A stretch of 64,000 nt of DNA from IMG/VR virus record IMGVR_UViG_3300046471_000229. The stretch is one strand, 5' to 3'. The DNA is from an uncultured virus (IMG/VR IMGVR_UViG_3300046471_000229). Its lineage: Duplodnaviria > Heunggongvirae > Uroviricota > Caudoviricetes. The position numbers and the translations under genes were made by a program. A model generated the notes under the pieces. The model saw only the letters and a program-made list of their open reading frames with translations. It had not been told where the DNA came from and made no database searches. Positions 5,141-36,208 of the stretch are shown in pieces (positions within the stretch are counted from its first letter, which is position 1; the number at the start of each line of letters is the position of its first letter).

Positions 5141-6832
5141 ATGAGTGGACAGACAATCGACACAAACGCCCTGAAGAAAATCGTACAGCAGTTAACCAGG
5201 CCATCTCTGACAGAGAAGATAAAGCTTCAGGTTCAGTCGTCATCGGCGCCAGAATCGAAAAACCCGATCAAGGCACAAGGGAAAGCCTATGCAAACAGGC
5301 ATCGCAAACTCCAGGGGCGGTCTGGATCAATTGCAAAATCTGAGAAGGAACAAGAAATCCACGAGATAATCCGCGACAACCCCATTCTGCTGCACACCCC
5401 TGAGTTGTACTCAGGCGGACTGTACTTGAATGCGGTTGTAAGCAAGCACCGCCTGCCATGTTTATTGGTGCCGGATTTCCTTTATATAACCGTACACAAC
5501 CGAGTCATACGCTTCACGTTGGTCGAAATTGAGAAGCCCGCGCATGGTGTATTCAGTGGCAGCTCATTCATGGCAGGAGTTAATACTGGATTGACCCAGG
5601 TGCGTAAGTGGATCACGCACATGGAACCTAGAGCTCAGCGAGAAGCCCTCCTACTGAATCTTAAGGGGCTATTCGAGCATTACCCTATCGAGCTTTTTAC
5701 AGCTGATGGATCGGTCAGCAAAAACACCCAGATCGAAATGGGTTATGTGCTCATCGTCGGCTCAGAAACGATTGAGTCAGATCTGCAGCAAAAGATGGTC
5801 GACGAGCTTTACCTCAAAGAAGGCATTCTGTTCATGACCTACCCGATGATGGTCGAACAGGTTAAGAGGCATCCATTGCCAAAAAACATGCTGAAGTCCG
5901 GCCCCCACGGCATCAGCGCATTCAAGCTCGATAGCCCGGAGATCTTCCTCAGGAAAGGCCCTTACATTGGTCATGAACGCCTAGAAGACAATGACCCTTA
6001 CGGTATTACCACCGGCGCTTTAGGGTGGAAGATCTACAAAGTCAGACTCCGCGAATACAGTAGGCATCCTGAGTCAATGAAGGAGATTTTCTATCGAGCG
6101 AATGGGCAGTGCGAGCATCCCGAGTGTGCCGAGCGAATCGTCCAAGATGGTGAGGTACACGGCAATCTTGGACGTATCTACAACATGTTCGAGAAGGCTT
6201 CAGATGTGAGCCAGCTGTGGAATACTGACTACACCCCTTTGTTGTGCCCAAAACACCGCGAGGCCTCGAACGCTACCTACCCGCCATGCTCATTGTTTTC
6301 TGACCATCCGATGAAGCTGGCGCTCCAGGCCCGCAGACCCTACCGACCGCACCTGGATGCTGAGCTATCCATATGTCTGGCGAAATGGCGTGACTCCATT
6401 GGCCAGTCAGTACTCAACATCCTTGAAATCGATCAAAAACTTGAGCCTGGGTTTGCAGCGCAGATACATGAATGGATGCTGGCCGTCACTTCACTTCCGT
6501 GGCAATGGGCAATGCTACTGAAGGACTTGGTTCTGGATCATTTTCAAATAATCCGATGGTATGAGGTGAGCCGTGCCGAGAAAATGCTCGATAGCCATCC
6601 GGGTTGGCGCTATCTCCTGAGGGCTGGCTTGATCAGGGTTAACCCATCGGCGAGAGCGCACCTGAAAATTGAGCCAAATGTTTTCAGCCGGGCATTCATC
6701 GACCGCGTACTCGAGAAGTTTCCAGAGAATGGTTACGTTGCTCTCGCAGACGTCTGCACCGCGAATGTCTATAAGCTAGCCAGCCGAGGGAAAGAACTGG
6801 GGGATCCCCATAGGCTGGTGGCCATTTTGTAA
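5141..6832 (+). CDS. Shedu (SduA/DUF4263)-like PD-(D/E)XK nuclease with C-terminal extension
   Basis: EQEIHEIIRDNPILL...PDF...LVEIEKP...F...GLTQVRKW pattern in the N-terminal half; CEHPEC...CPKH in the C-terminal half. Confidence 0.6.
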   Translation: MSGQTIDTNALKKIVQQLTRPSLTEKIKLQVQSSSAPESKNPIKAQGKAYANRHRKLQGRSGSIAKSEKEQEIHEIIRDNPILLHTPELYSGGLYLNAVVSKHRLPCLLVPDFLYITVHNRVIRFTLVEIEKPAHGVFSGSSFMAGVNTGLTQVRKWITHMEPRAQREALLLNLKGLFEHYPIELFTADGSVSKNTQIEMGYVLIVGSETIESDLQQKMVDELYLKEGILFMTYPMMVEQVKRHPLPKNMLKSGPHGISAFKLDSPEIFLRKGPYIGHERLEDNDPYGITTGALGWKIYKVRLREYSRHPESMKEIFYRANGQCEHPECAERIVQDGEVHGNLGRIYNMFEKASDVSQLWNTDYTPLLCPKHREASNATYPPCSLFSDHPMKLALQARRPYRPHLDAELSICLAKWRDSIGQSVLNILEIDQKLEPGFAAQIHEWMLAVTSLPWQWAMLLKDLVLDHFQIIRWYEVSRAEKMLDSHPGWRYLLRAGLIRVNPSARAHLKIEPNVFSRAFIDRVLEKFPENGYVALADVCTANVYKLASRGKELGDPHRLVAIL

Positions 6833-25760: not shown

Positions 25761-26225
25761 TTAACATGGTGGGTAATCGGGACGTTCGTAAGTATTCACG
25801 CCTGAGGCTCTTAGCCGCTCCATGTGCGCCGGAAAGTCGTTTCGCGGGTAGATCATCACCATTTGATCTATCCCCAGGTCTTTCTCTACTTCGTAATTAT
25901 GGCGGCTTACGTGCTTCATGCCTTTGCTGAGCCACTTGTACATCTCTTTACTAGCGCAAATGGCACGAGAGTAGCCCCACGATCTGCGGCATTGTAAATC
26001 GAGCTTGCCTTGCTTCCAGTTAAGGCGACGGCCAACCCCGTTATAGCGCACCATCACATCCAGGTCGCTGGGTTCTTGAGACCCCTTAACGGTCGAACCG
26101 AAAATCCAAACCTGATAAATCCTGACGGCTTCGAAATCACAAAGCGGTGTTGCCAGCAAACCATTAACTGCCTTGCAGCGTTCAGCAATCCGTTGCGCAT
26201 AGCGCTCAGCCAAATCTATTTTCAT
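25761..26225 (-). CDS. minimal nucleotidyltransferase (Pol-beta superfamily)
   Basis: WIFGSTVKG...SDLDV. Confidence 0.7.
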   Translation of the reverse strand: MKIDLAERYAQRIAERCKAVNGLLATPLCDFEAVRIYQVWIFGSTVKGSQEPSDLDVMVRYNGVGRRLNWKQGKLDLQCRRSWGYSRAICASKEMYKWLSKGMKHVSRHNYEVEKDLGIDQMVMIYPRNDFPAHMERLRASGVNTYERPDYPPC

Positions 26226-26295
26226 CTGAGGGTTACCGGAAAATTCGTATGCCCATGATCATAGTGTTGAATTGACAAAATGCCAAACAGCTCCT

Positions 26296-26733
26296 TCAGC
26301 CGTGAATGGACATCACCACGTCAGGATCAGCCGTTTTGGCAAGCCCAGGGCCCACAAGCACATAAACGGTGTTCACCGTTTCAAATAGCCCACTATGGGT
26401 AAAGGAGACCTGAAGCGTGCTGCGTACCCACTGACCACGGTAAAAGCGCCCAGCGCTGTCCTGAAGCACGTTGTGGGCATAAACCAGGTACGGCTCGCTG
26501 CCTATGCGTTGGATTGCCTTCAAAGAACGCTCATCGGCGTCCATCTTGATCAGCATCCAGTTTGAGACCAGGCAGTACGGTTTATTCGGAAAGTGACTCT
26601 TCACAAATGCAATGGCCTCCCCTTCGGTCATGTCTAAACCCATGAGCGATTCACCCGGAGTATTCAGGAAGCCTGAGACTGTGACTAGGTAGCTGTCTAC
26701 TGACTGCGGGAAAGTCGGCTCTTTTACGTTCAT
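26296..26733 (-). CDS. conserved hypothetical protein, related to 62584..63024
   Basis: DSAGRF..G.WVRST...FETVNTVYVLVG; likely start Met at 26733. Confidence 0.6.
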   Translation of the reverse strand: MNVKEPTFPQSVDSYLVTVSGFLNTPGESLMGLDMTEGEAIAFVKSHFPNKPYCLVSNWMLIKMDADERSLKAIQRIGSEPYLVYAHNVLQDSAGRFYRGQWVRSTLQVSFTHSGLFETVNTVYVLVGPGLAKTADPDVVMSIHG

Positions 26734-26843
26734 AGGGCTTATCCAATCTTTACGGTCTGTGGAGAATGCGGTGACTTGGTGGTTGTCACCTTCCGCCGCT
26801 TTGCAATCATATGGCATGAATTGCCGGCATCACAACTCGGTTG

Positions 26844-29639
26844 TCAGCCTTCGTGGTAAAACCCAAAACTCTCATCTCGATGGATTACCCGGTCTACCTG
26901 ATCAGGCTGGTAGTTGGCCAACTCGAAGACCATCGCCTCGTCCGGCTGGATGCCCAGCTCGATGCTCTTCTCCACCAGATACTCATCTGGCCAGACCAGC
27001 CAGGCGTTGGAAGCCGGCGCTGTCCTTCGGTAAGCCCGACGCTCCCAGGAGGATTTGTCAGTCGAGTTAACGACTTTCTGCAACACGAACTCACCGCAGT
27101 CCTGATCAACTGCAATCCGGTACCGATCCGTCGACGTTGACCCGCGCAACGGGTACCGCTCGTAGAAAGCTTGGGTCATCCAAGCCGCTTCGCACCCTTC
27201 CCGCCTGAGGATGATGTCCATACCCTCCTCAAGGCGCTTGCTGATGATTCTGTCCTCGTCCTTGGCAATCTGCCGCCCACTGAGTCGGAATGACGCGTCA
27301 ATGCGCTCCAGCGGTGTCTCAGCCCCGCCCACGTGAAGCATCTCACTGATCTTTGTTGAACTGTACCGGCAGGCCCTGACTTCGAATCCTGGTTTAACAA
27401 AACATGGTTGGCTGCCAAGCCCCTTACGCTGGCTCCCCTTCAGCGACCGTAGGTTGCAATCTAGGATCACCACGTTTGGCTTATCCACTTCCACCAGGCG
27501 ATGCCGGTTCACCCGCCCACTGGTTTGCACGATGGACTGAGCGCTCGACGGTTCGATGACAGCCCAGTCAAAGTCATGATCGCGCCCCACTTCTTCCACC
27601 GGCGTTGCGATGACAATCATTGGGACAGAGCCAGCCCCTGTCGGGAAAGCAGCGAGCAGCTCTGGATCTGACCCTAGCCTCTCATGGTGACCGCTTTTAC
27701 GGTTAAGCAGGTAGTCGAGCCTTTGTTCCTTCAGGTGCCGCTGAATGCGCAGCTCATTCGAGTGGTAACACGCGATCTTGGGCCCGGTGTCGCCGAATTG
27801 CTCACTTAGGTACCTGGCCACTTTAATGGCGGTCGAGATGTTGGCCACCCTAATCAGACCGAATGACAGGTGTTTGCCCGGCGCCAGCTCCCATTGGTGG
27901 TCGGCATGCAACTGCAGAACCGAATTCCGGATAATTTCGAGATAGGCCTGATCACTGTTCCCCGCCACCTTGGCGATCCTCGGCTGGCGATACACCGCCT
28001 TCTGCTGAAGGGAGTCGATCATTTCCGCGTAGCGGGCTGCGACAAAGGCACCGAACTCGCCGGCACCGTCGTGGAACCCAGCTGGCGGCAACAAATCATC
28101 GATCATGACCACAACCGGCCTCGTTGAGCCAGGCTCTACGGCCCCCCGCATCCGGGCACCACTCAGAAACGCTTCATGTACCGCAACCGCCACCGGTACC
28201 GATAACGTCGCCGACGAGCAAATCACATTCCGCCCGAGCATGGCACTCAGCTGTATCAGCCGCAGCACTGCGACCATCGCTTGGGGGTCGTAACTGTCTA
28301 TCTCGTCAAGTATGAGATCGCTGTTCATGACACGGAGCAGCGCCAGCGCATGGTGCCCCTGGCGGCCCGGCTCACTGGCGTTGATGATGAAGTCGATGGT
28401 CGACACAAGAACGGGTGGCATCAGCAGCTGGGGGGCCTTCTGGCTCCTTGCGAGAGGCTGAAGCCAAGTCGGAATCACGAAGTCATCACAGCTGACCTCG
28501 ATTTCTGTTTGATCACCGGCGTTACCATTCATTGAGAAGGCGTCCGAACTCGCCCTATGCATCTGCTCTGTGATGCGGTCACCGATCACGACCGCTATTT
28601 CGTCTGATCTGATTTGCAGGTCGATGCGAAGACTATCGCCGGTTTGGAGTGTCAGAGAGCGAAGGTTGAGAGCAACACAGAACCGAGGGTTTGCAGAAAG
28701 CGCACACGCTATTTTCGCATTGCCTCTGGTCTTTCCCGCCCCGGTGCCGGCGCCGCAGAAAACGAGTGCTGGAGCACAATTATTTTCTCTCACCGCCTTC
28801 AGGTAGGCCACTGCCTGATCTTGCCAATCGAAACGTGGATGCGTTGCCGGCGCCATGATCGAGGCAATCGTGGCCGGGCTCAACCCTGGGTACTCTTGCC
28901 TGCCCATTTCCATAGCAATGTCACCCGCCAGGTCGCCAACACTTCGCAAATGCCAATCGAGGGGCTGGTCATATCGACGCTGCCCGCTGGAAGTGTCCTT
29001 AGTATTTGCGAAAAGGCATGACGCCGCAGGCTGGCCGTGCAGCGCTTGATAATCCACTGAAGAAATGAAGTGGTCGGCCAGGATCAGGGCTGCTCGAGAA
29101 AATACGGCTATCAACTCCCAGTGTTCTGCTCCGTAAGCTTCGGGAATCCTGGTAAGAAGCCTCGAAGCGTCTGCGTAGAGGCCGCCATCGATATTTCCGG
29201 CAGACCTCACGCCACTAACTGGGATGTGTCCTTGTATGTGGGCCGCACCACTCAGAGCAATATCGCGCCCACCGAGGAGCTTATGGTGACTGACGAGCAG
29301 GTACTCGAGCACCCTGTCACGATCTACCAAACCTTTCTTCAGCGACTCGCAGTCATTGATCAACGACTGAGTGCTGGCGCCAACCCACGCAGCTTCAAAT
29401 CCGTGCACTCTCGCCGCCTTAAGCAGCGCGTACGAAAGCCATTCATGGCGAACCGGTTCGACCCGTCGCTCCCGGCCTTGTACGGAGTCTTCAAGCTTCA
29501 GGAAGAAATCTAGGCTGCTCTTGCCCCAATCATGGAGATAACCAGCCGCACGGGCCAGAAGGCAGGCTTGATCGAGCCATGTTGTGAGGCTAGTTTCACG
29601 CTGGATGGAGCTCGAAATGGGGACGAGAAGTGAGGTCAC
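26844..29639 (-). CDS. cas3: type I-F Cas3 HD nuclease/SF2 helicase lacking the N-terminal Cas2 domain
   Basis: HD motifs LHDWGK, RHE, SHH, ADH; Walker A GTGAGKT; ALNLRSLTLQTG; DEID; SAT; EVGRDHDFDWAV; QTSGRVNRH. Confidence 0.95.
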   Translation of the reverse strand: MTSLLVPISSSIQRETSLTTWLDQACLLARAAGYLHDWGKSSLDFFLKLEDSVQGRERRVEPVRHEWLSYALLKAARVHGFEAAWVGASTQSLINDCESLKKGLVDRDRVLEYLLVSHHKLLGGRDIALSGAAHIQGHIPVSGVRSAGNIDGGLYADASRLLTRIPEAYGAEHWELIAVFSRAALILADHFISSVDYQALHGQPAASCLFANTKDTSSGQRRYDQPLDWHLRSVGDLAGDIAMEMGRQEYPGLSPATIASIMAPATHPRFDWQDQAVAYLKAVRENNCAPALVFCGAGTGAGKTRGNAKIACALSANPRFCVALNLRSLTLQTGDSLRIDLQIRSDEIAVVIGDRITEQMHRASSDAFSMNGNAGDQTEIEVSCDDFVIPTWLQPLARSQKAPQLLMPPVLVSTIDFIINASEPGRQGHHALALLRVMNSDLILDEIDSYDPQAMVAVLRLIQLSAMLGRNVICSSATLSVPVAVAVHEAFLSGARMRGAVEPGSTRPVVVMIDDLLPPAGFHDGAGEFGAFVAARYAEMIDSLQQKAVYRQPRIAKVAGNSDQAYLEIIRNSVLQLHADHQWELAPGKHLSFGLIRVANISTAIKVARYLSEQFGDTGPKIACYHSNELRIQRHLKEQRLDYLLNRKSGHHERLGSDPELLAAFPTGAGSVPMIVIATPVEEVGRDHDFDWAVIEPSSAQSIVQTSGRVNRHRLVEVDKPNVVILDCNLRSLKGSQRKGLGSQPCFVKPGFEVRACRYSSTKISEMLHVGGAETPLERIDASFRLSGRQIAKDEDRIISKRLEEGMDIILRREGCEAAWMTQAFYERYPLRGSTSTDRYRIAVDQDCGEFVLQKVVNSTDKSSWERRAYRRTAPASNAWLVWPDEYLVEKSIELGIQPDEAMVFELANYQPDQVDRVIHRDESFGFYHEG

Positions 29640-29662: not shown

Positions 29663-29691
29663 TTGACGGAGGCCGGCATAGTACATATATT
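29663..29691 (+). promoter_or_regulatory. putative sigma70 promoter of the CRISPR array
   Basis: TTGACG-N17-TATATT followed by CCGCCCCCATC. Confidence 0.7.
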
Positions 29692-29782: not shown

Positions 29783-30846
29783 GTCCTCCACCGCCAAGGT
29801 GGTTTTGAAATGAATTTACCAACCAGGGTCAACTCAAGGTTTGTTCTCCACCTTGTGGGTGGTTTTGAATGATTAGCGGTTAAGTACTAGCTGCACAGCT
29901 GTTCACCACCTGCGGGTGGTTTAGAAATACAACGTGGTACCGACCCTTGTGAGCGCAGCGTTGACCAACGTCCAGGTGGTTTTTATAAGGATTGGCACGA
30001 CCCTGACGTCCCCCACCCTGAGGGTGGTTTTGAAAGCCGTTGGATGGCAGCTTGGCATTTACCACATTGAGGTGGTTTTGACACAGAAAGATCAAGCGGA
30101 CATTGGTTCTCCACCGTTCAGGTGGTTTTGAAAACTGGATAAATGACTTAACCACCTGCTTGGTGGTTTTGACACAGGAAGATCATGCGGTCAGTAGTTC
30201 TCCACCGACCTGGTGGTTTTGAGATCTATAAAAATGAAATTTTTCACCACTTTCGCTGTGGTTGTGAAATATCGTATTGCCCCGCGTCCATGGTGGCATG
30301 CATTCACCACTGCTGAGGTGGTTTGTGAAAAGACTGTAGGTACTGTCGTCCACCCTTGTGGTGGTTTTGATATTGCTAATGGCCATAGGCTTCATCCGTT
30401 TACCACCCACCGGTGGTTTTGAAATCAGCCTGGATACCGTTTGCTGTCCACCCTTGAGTGGTTTCGAAGTCATAGTGCTCCCCACGTGTTCCCCACCCTA
30501 AAGGGTGGTTTTGAAGAAGACTGAACCCAGCTTCCTGTTCTCCACTTTCGAGTGGTTTGGAATCTATATTCTGCGCTCCCGCGTGCCCGATCCCCGATTT
30601 ATCGGGGCTGGGCACGCTCGTTCTTCATCCCCACCGCACTGGTGGTTTAGAAGAAACACAATTCGAGTTCACCACCCTGCGGGTGGTTTGGAAAAACCCC
30701 AGTGAAGACGCGATTCTGTACCATTTGTTCACCACCCTACGGGTGGTTTTGAAGAGACTGTAGCCCGTCGACGCCATTCGCCTCCTCAGGCGACTGTTTC
30801 GAACAATCGGCTCTCCAGCGTCCGCCACCTTCGGGTGGTCTGAGCT
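29783..30846 (+). CRISPR. atypical type I-F CRISPR array, ~20 repeats with variable loops and 13-65 nt spacers
   Basis: consensus GTTCH-CCACC-N(4-6)-GGTGG-TTTTGAAA (27-29 nt), same geometry as the I-F repeat GTTCA-CTGCC-GTATA-GGCAG-CTAAGAAA; repeat starts at 29783, 29843, 29901, 29960, 30008, 30057, 30106, 30147, 30197, 30242, 30302, 30345, 30398, 30443, 30488, 30537, 30626, 30667, 30727, 30820; flanked by cas3 and cas8f. Confidence 0.92.
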
Positions 30847-30980
30847 TTTTCTGCGAAATTGCGGAGTCAATCAGCCAGCTTCCGATGGGTTTTTTACGTT
30901 TGAAGAATGAACCGTGGAGATTCCGTAAACCCTTACGCCGCAACGTTTTTCGCGATTTTTACCCAAACATAATTCAAGTG

Positions 30981-31009
30981 TTGACGAGTCATAACGTATT
31001 GCATATATT
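30981..31009 (+). promoter_or_regulatory. putative sigma70 promoter of the cas8f-cas6f operon
   Basis: TTGACG-N17-TATATT followed by GCCGCCCCATC. Confidence 0.7.
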
Positions 31010-31041: not shown

Positions 31042-32142
31042 ATGACAAAAGAATCAGCGACAGCCGAAGCTGCAGATATCAAGGAGTGGAAAAGCCATCC
31101 TCTGGATGACTACTCCACAGCCATCGAAAAGCTTGTGCACCACTCGTTCAAAACTGTGAACACCAATGCTGAAGCCGGTGGCGTCCGGATCGCTAAAACG
31201 AACGGCACCAAACTGCCCTACGTTGGCGTGCGCACTCTGCTGGGCCACGGCATCGATGTCCTGATGGATCGCTACGAAGGCGCTGCGACCTCTCGGATCT
31301 ACTCCCAGATCAGTGAAGTTGCCCAGGGCCGTGTTGAAGGCGTTCCACCCCTGGAACTTGCTCATATCCAGCAATCCCTGGATCTGATCAAATCCAGGAG
31401 CCTGGTGCAGAGCCGGCAGATCTCGCCACGTGTGCGTCAGATCTTGCTGCCGCGCCCTGATGGTGGCTACCTGAGTGTTACGCCAATCTCTGCTGCCGGC
31501 GTTAGCCATCAGCTGAAGTCGTCCGCGCTGGCTCACAACCAGATGATCCATGAGCTTCGAAAGGCCAAGGATGAATCGGCTGAAGGCTTCAGGCGCATTA
31601 CGCTCGCCGACTTCCCTATCGGCGGCGCTAAGCCCCTGAACCCTGGCGGCATGGTGTTTTCCATGCGAGCACCTATCGTTGGGAAATTTCCGGCCATGGC
31701 CAGCGAGCGTTCACGCGCCCTTTCGCTGCATTACTACGGCATTCGCAACCTGCGTTTGCCCAAGGGCCTGCAAGCGGAGTACGTGAGCTGGCGCAACAAG
31801 CACAAAGGCATGGTTGAGGCTGATCAAGCTACTCGCACCGAGCATGCCAATTTGATCTCGCGCATGGTTCAGCACCTGCTGCGCTTGGGCTCGGACGCTT
31901 ACGAACTGCTCCAGCAAAATGCCGACAAACTCCCAGGCGGCGTGCTGCTGAGTGCCCAGGTCGGTCACCTTGAAGCTGGCCTGATTGATCCAGATCGTCG
32001 CACGACCAACTGGCGATACGACGCTGGTTCGGCACTTGCCCGGCGCTTCGCAGCGATTGAACGCGACGACACGCGCCAATACGAATATTCGCAAGGCGAG
32101 ATCAATGCGATTGCCGGCCTGGTGAGGAATAGCCTGAAATGA
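31042..32142 (+). CDS. cas8f: type I-F Cascade large subunit Cas8f (Csy1), short and divergent
   Basis: HSFK..NTNA, YVG..TL, RQILLP..DGGYLSVTPI and GGAKPLN correspond to Csy1 motifs; first gene of the operon. Confidence 0.8.
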   Translation: MTKESATAEAADIKEWKSHPLDDYSTAIEKLVHHSFKTVNTNAEAGGVRIAKTNGTKLPYVGVRTLLGHGIDVLMDRYEGAATSRIYSQISEVAQGRVEGVPPLELAHIQQSLDLIKSRSLVQSRQISPRVRQILLPRPDGGYLSVTPISAAGVSHQLKSSALAHNQMIHELRKAKDESAEGFRRITLADFPIGGAKPLNPGGMVFSMRAPIVGKFPAMASERSRALSLHYYGIRNLRLPKGLQAEYVSWRNKHKGMVEADQATRTEHANLISRMVQHLLRLGSDAYELLQQNADKLPGGVLLSAQVGHLEAGLIDPDRRTTNWRYDAGSALARRFAAIERDDTRQYEYSQGEINAIAGLVRNSLK

Positions 32143-32948
32143 GCTACTACCTGATTCTGAAACACCTTAACGTTCGCCATGCCAACGCATTGTCGAGCAA
32201 CTACGCGGTTACGGCGGCGCCCATCATGGCGGTCAACCTCTTTGCCCATGCAATGGGCCTGAAGATCGGTTGCCAGGCAGACGGCGTGGCGATGATCCAC
32301 CACGACGCCAAGTACTTGGCTGAGATGGACTTCCACAGCGGCTATAAGCGGCCTCAGTTCCAGCAGCGCCGCGCCTCAACCTACATCGACAAGAACGACT
32401 ATGTCGGTACCACCATGGCGCTCTCGTTGCAGCCGGTGGCCACCGTTCATTTGAAGATCAGTCTGGTAATCGAGTTTGCGACCAAACCTGACTTGGGCCT
32501 GGTAAAAGAGTTCCTGCATGAGGGTCGTCTTGCTGGCGGTGTAATCGAAAGCTACGCCACCCCGCAGGAATTCCATGAAAGCGATGACAAGCTGTTCGAT
32601 GCCATCCCTGGTAACGGGTTCTGGCTCATCGACCGTCAAGACTTGTTGGTTGGCGAAAACCCTGTGGATCTGCTGGTCAGCGAACTTGGTACTCGGGCGC
32701 AGTCTGACGCAAACGACTCGTGGCTCACTCCGGTTGTGCCGGCTTACGCCTTGACGTCCGAGCCTGCTGAACGTGTTGTGGGTGTCAGGAGCCTCTCAGA
32801 TGGCACCTACCCGGCCCACGCCTACGGCGAGCCACTGATGGGCCTGGCGCAGTACGTTTCAGTTCGTGAATTCGAGGGCGAATCCCTCCCGTTCTGGCGC
32901 AGCCGCTGGATCGACGACACCGTTTTCGCTGTAAGCACAACCTACTAA
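32139..32948 (+). CDS. cas5f: type I-F Cas5f (Csy2)
   Basis: LNVRHANALSS...FAHAM, RLAGGVI, YGEPLMGLAQY; overlaps the cas8f stop. Confidence 0.9.
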   Translation: MSYYLILKHLNVRHANALSSNYAVTAAPIMAVNLFAHAMGLKIGCQADGVAMIHHDAKYLAEMDFHSGYKRPQFQQRRASTYIDKNDYVGTTMALSLQPVATVHLKISLVIEFATKPDLGLVKEFLHEGRLAGGVIESYATPQEFHESDDKLFDAIPGNGFWLIDRQDLLVGENPVDLLVSELGTRAQSDANDSWLTPVVPAYALTSEPAERVVGVRSLSDGTYPAHAYGEPLMGLAQYVSVREFEGESLPFWRSRWIDDTVFAVSTTY

Positions 32949-32968: not shown

Positions 32969-34051
32969 ATGACCACACCGACTATTAAATTTTCGAAACT
33001 CCCAGGCGTCCTGTCTTTTACACGCCGTATCAACGTCACCGACTGCCTGTTCTTCAGTGGCATGCCTGACGGCTCGCTGAAGCCCCTGCTGGTAACCCGC
33101 AGCGGCCTGCGTGGTACGCAGAACATCAACAAGAAGGCCACCGGTGATCGCCAGGAAGTCTCGAACATCCAACTGACCGACTCGGCCAAAACCGATGTTG
33201 AAGCGGCGTCCCTGGTTGTTCAGATGGGCATCGGCTTCTATGCGCTGCAGAATGGCCTGAACTCCTGCGCTCTGTCCAAGACCGACGACGAGTCGTTGCT
33301 GGGTCAGTTCAAGGCCAGCTTTAACGGCTTCCTCGAACGCAGTGCCGGCGCCACCGGGATCTCTGCAGGTCTTCAAGAAGTCGCCAACCGCTATGCCCGA
33401 AACATCGCCAATGGTCGTTGGCTGTGGCGCAATCGTCAGTACGCACAGACCGTCAGTGTGACCGTCCAGTGTGGCGACGACATCATGACTTTCGACGCCC
33501 TGAAGACACCGCTGAACCGCTTCGACAACTACACCGCCGATGAACTTAAACTGGGCGGCTACATCGCCAGCTGCCTGGCCGGCCAGGCCCAACACAAGCT
33601 GACCGTCGGTGCCATCCTGAACTTCGGTGAAGGCATGAACGGCAGCATGGAAGTCTACCCATCTCAGAACTACCTGGGCGGAGACAAGCCAAAAGGCTTC
33701 GCTCGTTCGTTGTACGCGGTCGGTGAGTCCTTCCTGACCCCTGCAACTGACCTGATGGCGCTGCAGTCCAGCCGTATCGTCGGCCAGGCGGCATTGCGTG
33801 ACACCAAGGTGGCCAACGCCTTGCGCACCATGGATACCTGGTACCCTGATTTCGAATCCCACGGCCTGCCAATCTCGGTTGAACCGTGCGGTGCGAACCT
33901 GGACGCTCAAAAGATGTTCCGTGGCAACAAGGAATCGTCCTTCACCTTCATGCGCCAGCTCAATGCCACTGACGTCAACAGCGGCGAAGGCATGTTCATG
34001 ATCGCCTCGCTGATTCGTGGCGGCGTGTACTCCGAGGGTGGTGACAAGTAA
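32969..34051 (+). CDS. cas7f: type I-F Cas7f (Csy3)
   Basis: VLSFTRRI, YARNIANGRWLWRNR, EVYPSQ, KVANALRTMDTWYP, LIRGGVY. Confidence 0.95.
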   Translation: MTTPTIKFSKLPGVLSFTRRINVTDCLFFSGMPDGSLKPLLVTRSGLRGTQNINKKATGDRQEVSNIQLTDSAKTDVEAASLVVQMGIGFYALQNGLNSCALSKTDDESLLGQFKASFNGFLERSAGATGISAGLQEVANRYARNIANGRWLWRNRQYAQTVSVTVQCGDDIMTFDALKTPLNRFDNYTADELKLGGYIASCLAGQAQHKLTVGAILNFGEGMNGSMEVYPSQNYLGGDKPKGFARSLYAVGESFLTPATDLMALQSSRIVGQAALRDTKVANALRTMDTWYPDFESHGLPISVEPCGANLDAQKMFRGNKESSFTFMRQLNATDVNSGEGMFMIASLIRGGVYSEGGDK

Positions 34052-34602
34052 TGAAGCCCGCCACTTATGTTGACTACACCTTGAAGGTGGCCAACAGGGC
34101 GTCCGTTGCGGAGGTGTCCCAGGGCGCCTCCCTGCTGATGAAGGCACTGCACGCTGGCTTTTCCGAGTACAAGGAGAAGTTCGCGCTAGCCCTGCCGTTC
34201 CTCGACGAGTCCAGCCCTCAGAAGAAGCTGTCCACGTTCCGGGTGTTTGCCCAGAGCATGGAAGATCACGTCATGCTTCACGAATTCATGCAGCGCTCGG
34301 GGTATCTAGACACCTACTTTGTCGCCGGCTTCCCGAAAATGGTGCCAGCGGACTTCGCCGGCACGTACAAGGCCTTCAGCCGCGTGCGGATCAAGTCCCG
34401 AGCCGATGGCGTCAAGCGCCTGAAGAAAATGCTCGAGGTCGAATCCAACGGCAATCCATGGTTCAACGTCCAAAGCCGTGAAAACGGCCACCGGTTCCGG
34501 ATGTACGTCCAGAGCCACGTTGCAGAGGCAGGTAGTGAGGGGGTTCTCAACGGTTACGGGATGTCGCAGGCCGAAAACCTGCAATACCTACCACACCTTT
34601 GA
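34051..34602 (+). CDS. cas6f: type I-F crRNA endoribonuclease Cas6f (Csy4)
   Basis: KALH (catalytic His position), ALP, RVFA, SRENGHRF, NGYGMS glycine loop, LP terminus. Confidence 0.88.
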   Translation: MKPATYVDYTLKVANRASVAEVSQGASLLMKALHAGFSEYKEKFALALPFLDESSPQKKLSTFRVFAQSMEDHVMLHEFMQRSGYLDTYFVAGFPKMVPADFAGTYKAFSRVRIKSRADGVKRLKKMLEVESNGNPWFNVQSRENGHRFRMYVQSHVAEAGSEGVLNGYGMSQAENLQYLPHL

Positions 34603-35396: not shown

Positions 35397-36017
35397 TCAA
35401 TGAGGTGAGGGAGAGTTCTCAACCACCTTCGGCTTGCTGACCTTGGTCGCGGCGGTTTTTTCCACTTCATCGCCGGCCATGATCATCGACGTCAGCATTT
35501 GAACCTGATTTTCAACCTCAGCCAGCACCTCGGCTTCGGTTTGCGTATGTGCAAACTTGGTCAGCGTGCGCTGCAAATAATCCTTAGGGAAGGTCATCAC
35601 TGGATCCAGGCCCAAAAGCTCGCCGGCTACGCCACCCGCAAAGTCGACACCCGTTTGACCACCGGAGATGACCCTCTCCAACGGCCAGTGCTTATGCACC
35701 AGATCCAGCACCTGGTACATCCACAGGTTGAGGTGTTCCTGGCGCCAGCCATAGTCCTTCAGCGTGTAGATGCCGTTACCCGCGATGTTGAGGACTTTTG
35801 CGCCTCGCTTACGGCATTCCGCGAACACCAGGCGGGCCGCCTCAATCGGCGACAAGCTCAGGTCGATGTGCAGGTATTTGTCGCCTGCGGCGGTCATGGT
35901 CAGTGCTTCGCCCTTGGAGGTGAAATCCTCGGCGAAAGCAACCGTCAGATCAGCCGTTTTGGCGTTGTGATAGGTGCGTGGCGGATAGGTAGCTTTTGTG
36001 TGTGCAACTGCTTTCAT
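35397..36017 (-). CDS. SLOG-family (YpsA/'MoCo carrier'-like) nucleotide-binding protein
   Basis: VISGGQTGVD and VLNIAGN motifs. Confidence 0.65.
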   Translation of the reverse strand: MKAVAHTKATYPPRTYHNAKTADLTVAFAEDFTSKGEALTMTAAGDKYLHIDLSLSPIEAARLVFAECRKRGAKVLNIAGNGIYTLKDYGWRQEHLNLWMYQVLDLVHKHWPLERVISGGQTGVDFAGGVAGELLGLDPVMTFPKDYLQRTLTKFAHTQTEAEVLAEVENQVQMLTSMIMAGDEVEKTAATKVSKPKVVENSPSPH

Positions 36018-36208
36018 GGGTGGCATCCGCCTTTTAGTGTCACTGAGAGATTGTTGAATTTTAACCATAACATTTGAGCTGTATTGACCGCTAGATCAGG
36101 GCTTTCATGGGGCTTCCAGCAGTCGCGTGTCATTGACAATACCTTAACAATCATTAAGATCGCCCTTCGCCGTTTTGCGGGCCCGTCTACCGATACCCAG
36201 AGCTTTAA

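What the first reader, a model, noticed from the sequence alone, without database searches (positions are those of the whole stretch)
29783..30846. Type I-F array with two spacer classes: canonical 30-32 nt and many short 13-25 nt guides
Seen: hand-parsed spacer lengths in order (each +/-1 where repeat edges are degenerate) are 32, 30, 32, 20, 21, 22, 13, 22, 17, 32, 14, 25, 18, 18, 20, 62, 13, 32, 65. Twelve of 19 are far below the ~32 nt fixed by I-F acquisition, yet each sits between intact stem-plus-handle units. Known: Cas7 coats the guide in 6-nt steps, and type I complexes with shortened guides can still bind DNA but license Cas3 poorly, giving repression. Natural short or atypical guides include CreA RNAs and CAST homing guides. 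Inference: this may be a dual-use system in which full-length guides drive Cas3 interference while short guides make Cascade a multiplexed RNA-guided repressor of host or element genes. Alternatively, the short units may act as decoys against host I-F complexes.
Basis: partly seen in the sequence, partly recalled or inferred. Interest (0 to 1): 0.93.

Follow-up and report, generated by a model that had tools for sequence, protein, structure and literature searches.

The report
Megaplasmid CRISPR array of conserved short guides
A CRISPR array on a giant Pseudomonas plasmid carries many unusually short guides whose first 11 bases have been kept by selection, and which most likely switch genes off (including the system's own) rather than cut DNA.

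Summary
There are 20 hairpin repeats (GTTCNCCACC-loop-GGTGGTTTTGAA) at 29783-30846 (+), between cas3f (-) and a cas8f-like/csy2/csy3/csy4 operon (+). Spacers are 32,30,32,20,21,22,13,22,17,32,15,25,18,18,20,62,13,32,65 nt. The locus lies on a ~1 Mb Pseudomonas megaplasmid family. No Cas1 was found in 3 of 4 genomes or replicons searched.

The short spacers are not random decay. In 16 old spacer groups shared among six arrays of three plasmid lineages, positions 6 and 12 changed in 21 of 32 cases and the other positions 1-11 in 6 of 160 (p~5e-15). Cas-gene 4-fold sites are only 43-60% identical. This is the 6-nt signature of Cas7-bound base pairing, limited to the first two segments.

Spacer 17 matches the cas8f promoter with a CC PAM. 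pPL1 has a different guide matching its own cas8f promoter. Other conserved guides match CC-flanked host chromosomal sites. pPLMAXa keeps the Cascade genes and the array but has no Cas3.

Best reading: a large, inherited array of crRNA-like regulatory guides, a new variant of the CreR/CreA mini-array kind. No RNA or binding data exist. Most host targets are candidates, found in related hosts rather than the window's own.

The parts
26844..29639 (-). cas3f without a Cas2 domain (931 aa)
   Evidence: TIGR02562 559.2 bits (cut-off 565.95), matching model positions 308-1053 of 1110. A Cas3 HD domain hit covers residues 25-193, and PF22590 scores 87.5 bits.
29663..29691 (+). sigma-70-like promoter of the array (TTGACG-17-TATATT)
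   Evidence: Consensus scan, 10 of 12 matches. It is nearly identical to the cas8f promoter and is conserved upstream of the pPLMAXa array.
29783..30846 (+). array of 20 degenerate type I-F-like repeats with 19 spacers (12 short, 5 canonical, 2 composite)
30071..30237 (+). two-unit tandem duplication (91-nt period, 82-83% identity) giving the paralogous guides S06 and S08
30330..30344 (+). spacer 11 (guide B, AAGACTGTAGG seed), conserved in three lineages; candidate target in the host rplA-rplJ intergenic leader
   Evidence: The PAM was forced in the search, so the evidence is weak on its own.
30425..30442 (+). spacer 13 (guide D); matches a host site about 40 nt into a transketolase gene, with an unforced CC flank
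   Evidence: Pairing positions 1-5, 7-11 and 13-16 match.
30564..30625 (+). spacer 16: 12-nt conserved seed (guide G) followed by a strong hairpin; candidate target is the -10 box of the host promoter upstream of atpI
   Evidence: The PAM was forced in the search.
30654..30666 (+). spacer 17 (guide H, 13 nt): autoregulatory, CreR-like guide
   Evidence: It matches 30965-30977 with mismatches only at positions 6 and 12.
30755..30819 (+). spacer 19: guide I seed (AGACTGTAGCC), then a decayed repeat, then a further ~15-nt unit; candidate target in the host HDOD-gene/motA divergent intergenic region
   Evidence: The pPL1 version of the guide also matches positions 13-17 and 19.
30963..30977 (+). 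CC PAM (30963-30964) plus the protospacer of spacer 17, ending 3 nt before the -35 box
30981..31009 (+). sigma-70-like promoter of the cas8f operon (TTGACG-17-TATATT)
31042..32142 (+). cas8f-like gene (366 aa, very divergent)
   Evidence: Pfam Csy1 gives only 16.7 bits (cut-off 22.7). The assignment rests on position and on synteny with annotated I-F loci.
32139..32948 (+). cas5f (csy2)
   Evidence: PF09614 47.1 bits.
32969..34051 (+). cas7f (csy3)
   Evidence: TIGR02566 214.7 bits, above the cut-off of 157.55.
34051..34602 (+). cas6f (csy4)
   Evidence: PF09618 40.5 bits. Weak alignment to solved Csy4 (E 0.02).

Best explanation
The array is a vertically inherited, multiplexed set of crRNA-like regulatory guides. 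It belongs to a divergent type I-F system on ~1 Mb Pseudomonas megaplasmids that has lost its adaptation module. INFERRED: the array is transcribed from its own promoter and Cas6f cuts at the conserved hairpins. Each RNA (8-nt handle, 13-25 nt guide, hairpin) assembles a shortened Csy complex. The complex binds CC-flanked DNA through only the first two, sometimes three, 5-nt segments. That is too little pairing to license Cas3, so the outcome is transcriptional repression. SHOWN by sequence comparison: selection acts on exactly the base-pairing positions of the seed. One guide per lineage matches that lineage's own cas8f promoter (negative feedback of the CreR type). Several other conserved guides match CC-flanked sites in host chromosomes. 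One lineage has no Cas3 at all. The host-gene regulon (atp promoter, rplJ leader, motA region, braD 5' UTR, and the 5' ends of tkt, a Mur ligase gene and an aminotransferase gene) is a candidate list, not a demonstrated one.
For: (1) 16 old spacer groups were linked by a position-blind rule (>=10 of 12 identical) across six arrays. Positions 6/12 changed in 21 of 32 group-positions, the other positions 1-11 in 6 of 160 (Fisher p=4.6e-15; 0 of 200,000 permutations reached this). The first 11-group set gave 16 of 22 against 3 of 110. The periodicity is 6, not 3: positions 3+9 changed in 1 of 22. (2) In 26 inter-lineage pairs, pairing positions were 255/260 identical, flipped positions 23/52, and positions 19+ 49/113. 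Cas-gene 4-fold sites are 43-60% identical. (3) Window S17 matches CC|AAACAtAATTCaA, which ends 3 nt before the -35 of the cas8f promoter. pPL1 S15, a different sequence, matches CCCC|TGTAAgATTTGaCA over the -35 of its own cas8f promoter. (4) An exact 17-nt chromosomal match with an unforced CC flank lies in the braC-braD-like intergenic region of both hosts, where ~0.014 hits per genome are expected. Guide D has an unforced CC flank. Overall 6 of 11 unforced loci carry CC, against a background of 0.067-0.076 (P=6e-5). (5) pPLMAXa has intact cas8f-like, csy2, csy3 and csy4 genes but no Cas3f anywhere in its genome: 0 matches, with positive controls in the same call at E~1e-156 and 1e-162. No Cas1 was found in 3 of 4 genomes or replicons searched. 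(6) Cas1-bearing relatives with the same gene layout have strict 60-nt arrays with identical repeats. (7) Published work shows that I-F crRNA-like RNAs with 17-27 nt spacers are processed, load 4-5 Csy3 subunits and repress without cleavage (PMC10120712 passages; bioRxiv 10.1101/2024.10.29.618823 sections 11-12).
Against: There are no expression, processing or binding data, and no RNA run is listed. The window's own host genome is not held, so host targets were sought in two related hosts. On the whole P. serbica plasmid, seed matches equal chance (38 found, 38.4 expected; 4 of 38 with CC). The most widely conserved guide, A (5 copies in 4 arrays), has no convincing target. No convincing target was found either for C, J, S04, S05, or two other conserved guides. 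Guides E, K, S07, S09 and S14 were not searched in chromosomes. Guide F's best match, in RNase P RNA, has a TC flank. The hits for B, G and I came from PAM-forced 12-nt patterns, which are expected ~0.9 times per genome. The two hosts are close relatives, so shared hits are not independent. pPLMAXa has no exact-seed guide for its own cas8f promoter. Guides of 13-15 nt are shorter than any crlRNA shown to work in the papers I read. Cas3 is intact in two lineages, so interference by the 30-32 nt spacers is not excluded.
Confidence: 0.72

Rival explanations
1. Guides for competition between mobile elements. The conserved seeds recognise conserved sequences of rival plasmids or phages that are absent from the databases searched. 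The system silences or excludes them by binding alone, as plasmid type IV-A systems do, and the host-chromosome matches are incidental.
For: Guide A, the most conserved, and several others have no host or plasmid target. The system is plasmid-borne and lacks adaptation genes, like type IV (review PMC11656645, passages). pPL1 has a cas-remote array with 14 near-identical repeats and strict 32-nt spacers, which suggests recent acquisition against something.
Against: The whole array has no match in 50,697 phage or 72,556 plasmid records beyond noise at E~4. CC flanks are enriched at host-chromosome matches (6 of 11). An 11-nt seed is a poor discriminator of foreign DNA.
Confidence: 0.15
2. Neutral decay. 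After Cas1 and Cas2 were lost, the array froze and is eroding through point mutations, small deletions and duplications. The short spacers are scars with no function.
For: No Cas1 was found in 3 of 4 genomes or replicons searched. Repeat loops have diverged. The array contains a tandem duplication, a decayed repeat inside spacer 19 and composite spacers. The trailer ends of the cas-remote arrays are also ragged.
Against: Pairing positions of the seeds are 98% identical, while neighbouring flipped positions, repeat loops and synonymous sites are near saturation. Decay cannot produce a 6-nt periodic pattern. The stems keep pairing through compensatory changes. The Cascade genes are intact in all three lineages.
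Confidence: 0.05
3. Autoimmunity scars that are now tolerated. Spacers were once acquired from the host chromosome with a CC PAM, then truncated at the 3' end to stop Cas3 cleavage. They persist without any regulatory role.
For: Host matches carry the acquisition PAM. The truncation removes the PAM-distal pairing needed for Cas3 recruitment.
Against: Escape by seed mutation would be at least as easy, yet the seeds are the conserved part across lineages in different host species. Cas3 loss in pPLMAXa did not relax the seeds.
Confidence: 0.05
4. Decoy or anti-CRISPR RNAs (Racr/Cracr-like). The plasmid units soak up or reprogram the Cas proteins of a host type I-F system.
For: Plasmids and phages do carry such RNAs, sometimes in small arrays, with spacers of 17-21 nt (bioRxiv 10.1101/2024.10.29.618823, sections 7 and 11).
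Against: The cognate cas genes lie directly beside the array. The promoter that is targeted is the plasmid's own. The two host genomes examined have no Cas1, and their only Cas3f-family hits are on the plasmid contigs. Published Cracr arrays have 2-3 spacers, not 19.
Confidence: 0.03

Closest known systems
CreR / autoregulatory I-F1 mini-arrays between cas3 and cas8 (Shmakov et al. 2023, PMC10120712, passages read; 'Degenerated CRISPRs widely regulate Cas expression', bioRxiv 10.1101/2023.03.10.532045, search listing and start of abstract only)
   Same: Same position between cas3 and cas8. Degenerate repeats with a conserved stem. A short spacer and a CC PAM. The target lies in the cas8 promoter. 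Mismatches fall at positions 6 and 12. Repression without cleavage is expected.
   Different: Published elements have two repeats and one spacer, rarely 2-3 spacers. Here there are 20 repeats and at least 12 short guides, most of which do not match the cas locus. Some guides are shorter (13-18 nt). The system lacks Cas1 and the Cas2 domain, and in one lineage lacks Cas3.
CreA of CreTA modules and viral/plasmid Cracr RNAs (bioRxiv 10.1101/2024.10.29.618823; abstract and sections 7, 11, 12 read)
   Same: crRNA-like RNAs with 17-27 nt spacers that load into Csy complexes with 4-5 Csy3 subunits and silence promoters. They can be stacked into array-like units.
   Different: Those RNAs target cas or creT promoters only. 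Cracrs hijack a host's Cas proteins, and the largest arrays reported hold 2-3 spacers (one 3-spacer I-F array). No CreT-like toxin was looked for or seen here.
Type IV-A CRISPR-Cas of the Pseudomonas oleovorans megaplasmid (Guo et al. 2022, known to me only through the review PMC11656645, passages read)
   Same: A plasmid-borne class 1 effector without an adaptation module that acts by crRNA-guided transcriptional repression, including of a host chromosomal gene (pilN).
   Different: That system is type IV-A (Csf proteins, DinG helicase) with canonical full-length spacers. This one is a type I-F derivative that achieves non-cleaving binding through short, seed-only guides.
Canonical type I-F1 CRISPR-Cas (for example the Cas1-bearing relatives on A. 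baumannii p1DB053 and Allochromatium pAt1)
   Same: Homologous Cas7f, Cas5f, Cas6f and Cas3f. The same divergent cas3 | array | cas8-5-7-6 layout. A 28-nt repeat of the same design (GTTC..stem-loop-stem..8-nt handle).
   Different: Those loci have Cas1, a longer Cas3f (1021-1078 aa), identical repeats and strict 60-nt periodicity.

Membership tests
Type I-F CRISPR-Cas | Cas7f (Csy3), Cas5f (Csy2) and Cas6f (Csy4) are present | tested here: met
   TIGR02566 214.7 bits (cut-off 157.55), PF09614 47.1 bits, PF09618 40.5 bits.
Type I-F CRISPR-Cas | Cas8f (Csy1) large subunit | tested here: inconclusive
   PF09611 gives 16.7 bits, below the 22.7 cut-off. The gene sits in the syntenic position, and the equivalent gene is also annotated 'hypothetical' in the I-F relatives.
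Type I-F CRISPR-Cas | Cas2-Cas3 fusion protein | tested here: not met
   Cas3f is 931 aa and matches TIGR02562 positions 308-1053 only, at 559.2 bits (cut-off 565.95), so the Cas2 part is missing. pPLMAXa has no Cas3f at all.
Type I-F CRISPR-Cas | Cas1 adaptation gene | tested here: not met
   PF01867 has no match in G001, G002 or G003. Only pPL1 has a Cas1, about 19 kb from its locus and next to a Cas5-family gene. The window's own assembly is not held.
Type I-F CRISPR-Cas | 28-nt repeats with a 5-bp stem and an 8-nt 5' handle, alternating with 32-nt spacers | tested here: inconclusive
   The repeat design is met. Only 5 of 19 spacers are 30-34 nt. The cleavage site and handle length are recalled from canonical I-F and were not tested.
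Type I-F CRISPR-Cas | 5'-CC PAM | tested here: met
   6 of 11 unforced matches carry a CC flank, against a background of ~0.07 (P=6e-5).
crRNA-like regulatory RNAs (CreR-type autoregulatory mini-array) | A short spacer partially complementary to the cas8 promoter, PAM-flanked, with mismatches tolerated at every sixth position | tested here: met
   Window S17 against 30965-30977, and pPL1 S15 against its own promoter. Not met in pPLMAXa, which has no exact-seed guide.
crRNA-like regulatory RNAs (CreR-type autoregulatory mini-array) | A stand-alone mini-array of two repeat-like sequences (1-3 spacers) | tested here: not met
   There are 20 repeats and 19 spacers. The largest published crlRNA arrays have 2-3 spacers.
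crRNA-like regulatory RNAs (CreR-type autoregulatory mini-array) | Represses its target without cleaving it | not testable with these tools
   Inferred from seed-only conservation and from the Cas3-less lineage.
Racr / Cracr RNA anti-CRISPRs | Encoded on a mobile element away from cognate cas genes, acting on a host's Cas proteins | tested here: not met
   The cognate cas genes flank the array. The hosts' only Cas3f-family hits are on the plasmid contigs.
Nuclease-free class 1 derivatives (type IV-A, I-F3 CAST) | DinG helicase, or TniQ/Tns transposition genes, beside the effector genes | tested here: not met
   None of the 18 flanking ORFs scanned gave such a Pfam hit. Only ORFs between 19128 and 38725 were scanned.

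The most novel reading that the evidence does not exclude
A megaplasmid has domesticated an adaptation-less type I-F Cascade (Cas3-less in one lineage) as a programmable, multiplexed transcription factor. A hard-wired array of a dozen or more seed-only guides, inherited for long enough that synonymous sites have saturated, feeds back on its own cas promoter. It also reaches into the host chromosome to tune core operons: the ATP synthase promoter, the rplJL leader, the motA region, branched-chain amino-acid transport, transketolase and a Mur ligase. That would be plasmid-host crosstalk carried out by natural CRISPR interference.
Probability: 0.4. Interest if true: 0.9.

Novelty: new variant of a known kind. 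Interest (0 to 1): 0.78.

Why it matters
Regulatory crRNA-like RNAs are so far known as single units, or at most triplets, that control cas or toxin genes. This locus suggests the same principle can scale to a whole inherited regulon carried by a plasmid. It also offers a purely computational way to recognise such guides: conservation of positions 1-5 and 7-11 with free variation at 6 and 12, and loss of constraint beyond that. The pattern gives a natural readout of how much pairing a Csy complex needs for a selectable function. The Cas3-less lineage is a natural experiment separating binding from cleavage. The candidate host targets make plasmid control of host physiology by CRISPR interference directly testable. 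Guides of 13-18 nt would also extend the known lower size limit of functional type I-F guides.

Tried and rejected
(1) Protospacer search of the whole array against phages and plasmids at E<=5 gave only noise at E~4, plus the related arrays of pPL1. (2) BLAST of the array against two host genomes at E<=10 gave no significant non-array match to any canonical-length spacer; the best were 16-18 nt at E>=0.6, mostly inside repeats. (3) Self-targeting of the megaplasmid: 38 seed hits against 38.4 expected, so rejected as a general explanation. (4) Guide A as a 16-mer with up to 2 mismatches, and as PAM plus seed: only coding-region hits without extension. (5) Guide C: 10 and 7 hits, against controls of 2 and 3. 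The four I examined (two in each host) lie in a repetitive coding region and the rest were not examined; treated as chance. (6) Guide F lies in RNase P RNA with a TC flank; treated as unconvincing. (7) Guide J, S04, S05, TNAAANAGCGCCCGTAA and TTTCTNCCTTTTGG: no convincing target. (8) A codon-wobble explanation for the substitution pattern is rejected, because the period is 6 and not 3. One pair of 32-nt spacers in the cas-remote arrays does differ with period 3, which suggests independent acquisition from diverged alleles. (9) 6-nt quantisation of spacer length is not seen. (10) Sequencing runs: no RNA holder is listed, and read laying was not used. (11) Earlier scan notes returned nothing. 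(12) The window's own assembly is not held, so all whole-genome work used related genomes. I did not run structure prediction, complex prediction, the large protein-homology searches or the metagenome scan.
Full report
WHAT IS THERE. Window 29783-30846 (+) holds 20 repeat units of the form GTTCNCCACC-(3-6 nt loop)-GGTGGTTTTGAA. A covariance model built from them finds 20 of 20 full-length matches in the window inside this interval, all on the + strand. The only other window hits are partial matches with E>=2.7. The spacers measure 32,30,32,20,21,22,13,22,17,32,15,25,18,18,20,62,13,32,65 nt. The stem is invariant or changes in a compensatory way, while the loop is free: 97.6% of cells are paired, 3 of 5 pairs show double changes, and 0 of 500 shuffles reach this. 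A 91-nt two-unit tandem duplication at 82-83% identity shows the array has also grown by duplication and then drifted.

CONTEXT. The array lies between cas3f on the minus strand and a plus-strand operon. Cas3f is 931 aa; its HD and helicase parts are present but the Cas2 part is missing. The operon encodes a very divergent cas8f-like gene, csy2, csy3 and csy4. Two near-identical sigma-70-type promoters (TTGACG-17-TATATT) precede the array (29663-29691) and cas8f (30981-31009). Cas7f relatives place the locus on ~1 Mb Pseudomonas plasmids:
- a P. serbica plasmid (100% Cas7f identity; array 98% identical);
- pPLMAXa (84%);
- pPL1 of P. silesiensis (84%).
The window's own assembly is not held. 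More distant relatives have the same gene layout plus Cas1, a longer Cas3f, identical repeats and strict 60-nt periodicity. These are A. baumannii p1DB053, Allochromatium pAt1 and a Bdellovibrionota MAG, at 42-48% Cas7f identity. Cas1 (PF01867) is absent from the three whole genomes searched. Only pPL1 has one, about 19 kb from its locus and next to a Cas5-family gene.

THE SHORT SPACERS ARE CONSERVED IN A TELLING WAY. All three megaplasmid lineages have ragged cas-adjacent arrays: short spacers are 12 of 19, 11 of 15 and 9 of 17. Many spacers are orthologous. An anchored, ungapped all-against-all comparison of the first 12 nt is bimodal, with 31 pairs at >=8 of 12 matches against a shuffled mean of 4.1.

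In the 11 groups first defined, positions 6 and 12 changed in 16 of 22 group-positions and the ten other positions in 3 of 110 (Fisher p=4e-13). A permutation conditioned on each group's number of changes never reached the observed value. Positions 3 and 9 changed in 1 of 22, so the period is 6, not the 3 expected from codon wobble.

I then added three cas-remote arrays of the same repeat family: one on the P. serbica plasmid at 852-855 kb and two on pPL1. Using a position-blind linkage rule (>=10 of 12) gave 20 groups. I set 4 of them aside as recent (<=10% variable). In the 16 old groups, positions 6/12 changed in 21 of 32 and the others in 6 of 160 (p=4.6e-15; 0 of 200,000 permutations). 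Positions 13-17 changed in 33 of 73, position 18 in 8 of 12, and positions 19-23 in 28 of 40.

In 26 inter-lineage pairs, pairing positions are 255/260 identical, flipped positions 23/52 and positions 19+ 49/113. Four-fold degenerate sites of the four Cascade genes are 43-60% identical. So neutral sites are near saturation, and the ten pairing positions of the first two 5-nt segments are under strong purifying selection.

That every sixth guide base does not pair in I-F complexes is stated in the passages I read of PMC10120712. It is also general knowledge of type I effectors.

TARGETS. Spacer 17 (13 nt) matches window 30965-30977. A CC lies immediately 5' of the match, the only mismatches are at positions 6 and 12, and the match ends 3 nt before the -35 hexamer of the cas8f promoter. 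pPL1 has no orthologue of that guide. Instead its spacer 15, a different sequence, matches CCCC|TGTAAgATTTGaCA across the -35 of its own cas8f promoter, again mismatching only at 6 and 12 within the first 14 nt. pPLMAXa has no exact-seed guide for its promoter.

On the complete P. serbica plasmid, seed matches are at chance: 38 found against 38.4 expected, 4 with CC. In the chromosomes of the two hosts available, several conserved guides hit single shared sites:
- An exact 17-nt match of a guide from the cas-remote arrays, with an unforced CC, lies about 20 nt upstream of a braD/livH-like permease gene.
- Window guide D, with an unforced CC, lies about 40 nt into a transketolase gene.
- Two more cas-remote guides, with unforced CC, lie in a Mur-ligase gene (near its 5' end) and in a class-V aminotransferase gene.
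- From PAM-forced patterns: window guide G on the -10 box of the promoter before atpI, guide B in the rplA-rplJ leader, and guide I between an HDOD-domain gene and motA.

For guide I, the pPL1 version extends the match through positions 13-17 and 19 while mismatching at 6, 12 and 18. It also has one seed mismatch, at position 4. Counting all unforced loci, 6 of 11 have a CC flank against a background of 0.067-0.076 (binomial P=6e-5).

Against this, several results are negative. Guides A, C, J, S04, S05 and two other conserved guides gave nothing convincing. Guide F's site in RNase P RNA has a TC flank. PAM-forced 12-nt patterns are expected ~0.9 times per genome. The two hosts are close relatives, so shared hits are one observation and not two. 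No canonical-length spacer has a match in the phage or plasmid collections or in the host genomes.

A NATURAL CAS3-LESS LINEAGE. pPLMAXa keeps intact cas8f-like, csy2, csy3 and csy4 genes and an array with the conserved seeds. tblastn of the window Cas3 finds nothing in its 17-kb locus. A protein search and a TIGR02562 family search find nothing in its whole genome. The same family search rings at E~1e-156 and 1e-162 in the other two replicons.

MECHANISM. Shown by comparison:
- selection on seed pairing positions;
- guide-promoter matching in two lineages;
- PAM enrichment at matches;
- dispensability of Cas3 and Cas1 for retention of Cascade and the array.
Inferred:
- transcription from the array promoter;
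- Cas6f cleavage at the base of each hairpin. Cas6f aligns only weakly to solved Csy4 (E 0.02). The His and Ser I recall as catalytic align, but that identification is recalled, not tested;
- assembly of shortened Csy complexes;
- PAM-dependent binding with an incomplete R-loop, no Cas3 licensing, and transcriptional repression.
By analogy, the papers I read report that an I-F1 mini-array between cas3 and cas8 represses the cas8 promoter without cleaving it (PMC10120712, passages). They also report that I-F crRNA-like RNAs with 26- and 21-nt spacers assemble with five and four Csy3 subunits (bioRxiv 10.1101/2024.10.29.618823, sections 11-12).

COMPARISON AND NOVELTY. Spacer 17 is a member of the known CreR/autoregulatory mini-array kind. 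Four things are not described in what I searched and read:
- the scale, 20 repeats against the 2-3 spacers of the largest reported crlRNA arrays;
- long-term inheritance of many seed-only guides on a plasmid;
- guides as short as 13-18 nt;
- loss of adaptation genes, and in one lineage of Cas3, together with candidate host housekeeping targets.
The nearest functional analogue is the type IV-A system of a P. oleovorans megaplasmid that represses host pilN, which I know only through the review PMC11656645. My literature searches cover open-access papers and bioRxiv only. I did not open the supplements of the two key papers, and their tables of crlRNAs might already list related loci.

VERDICT. 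The dual-use and decoy parts are not. I rate it a new variant of a known kind with high interest. It needs RNA and binding experiments.

Noticed in passing
L063:12217-15034 (P. serbica plasmid contig 852,217-855,034, minus strand; outside the window): A second, cas-remote array of 48 units of the same repeat family. 36 of its 47 spacers are 30-34 nt, yet the repeat loops still vary. The leader end holds tandemly repeated spacers (S01=S05=S08; S02~S03=S04). The trailer end is ragged and shares seed-conserved guides with the cas-adjacent arrays of the other plasmids.
   Followed up: partly
L085 (pPL1 300,216-301,715) and L084 (pPL1 196,465-196,672): pPL1 has two further arrays. One has 14 leader-proximal near-identical repeats (GTTCACCACCCTGCGGGTGGTTTTGAAA) with strict 32-nt spacers, which suggests recent acquisition, followed by a degenerate trailer with short spacers.
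   Followed up: partly
L007:363-1956 (pPL1 ~766-767 kb): The only Cas1 found in the family overlaps the end of a Cas5-family gene (PF09704). It may belong to another CRISPR type, so which Cas1 fed pPL1's regular array is open.
   Followed up: no
G003:C1:371134-373764 and W01:C1:957805-960432: Second Cas3f-like open frames (1158 and 1192 aa; 278 and 302 bits to TIGR02562) lie elsewhere on two of the megaplasmids, hinting at a second class 1 system per plasmid. Cas7f also had two places in pPL1.
   Followed up: no
window 30581-30617: A strong imperfect hairpin lies inside the 62-nt spacer 16 (-29.1 kcal/mol, z -4.6). It is absent from the 23-nt pPL1 orthologue of that unit. Its role is unknown; an insertion, a terminator or an insulator are possibilities.
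   Followed up: partly
window 30780-30819: The 65-nt 'spacer' 19 contains a decayed repeat that aligns to a recognisable repeat of pPLMAXa, followed by a further ~15-nt unit (AATCGGCTCTCCAGC) that is orthologous in pPLMAXa.
   Followed up: partly
L001:~6000-6015 (pPLMAXa, just upstream of its cas8f -35 box): A repeat-like 3' half (GAGTGGTTTTGAT) abuts the -35 hexamer of the cas8f promoter in pPLMAXa, the lineage without Cas3 and without an exact-seed promoter guide.
   Followed up: no
L094:1487-1840 (host chromosome, upstream of mraZ): The seed of conserved guide F matches the 3' part of RNase P RNA through position 17, but the flank is TC. This may be coincidence, or a hint that some guides have non-DNA or non-PAM targets.
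   Followed up: partly
PL1b S13 against ser2 S19 (cas-remote arrays): Two 32-nt spacers differ at positions 22, 25, 28 and 31 (period 3), as if acquired independently from diverged alleles of one coding target.
   Followed up: no
window 25761-26817 and 35397-36068: The genes flanking the cas locus are a DUF6957 protein beside a small nucleotidyltransferase with weak MntA-antitoxin similarity, and a cpYpsA SLOG-family protein. They may be defence or toxin-antitoxin cargo.
   Followed up: no
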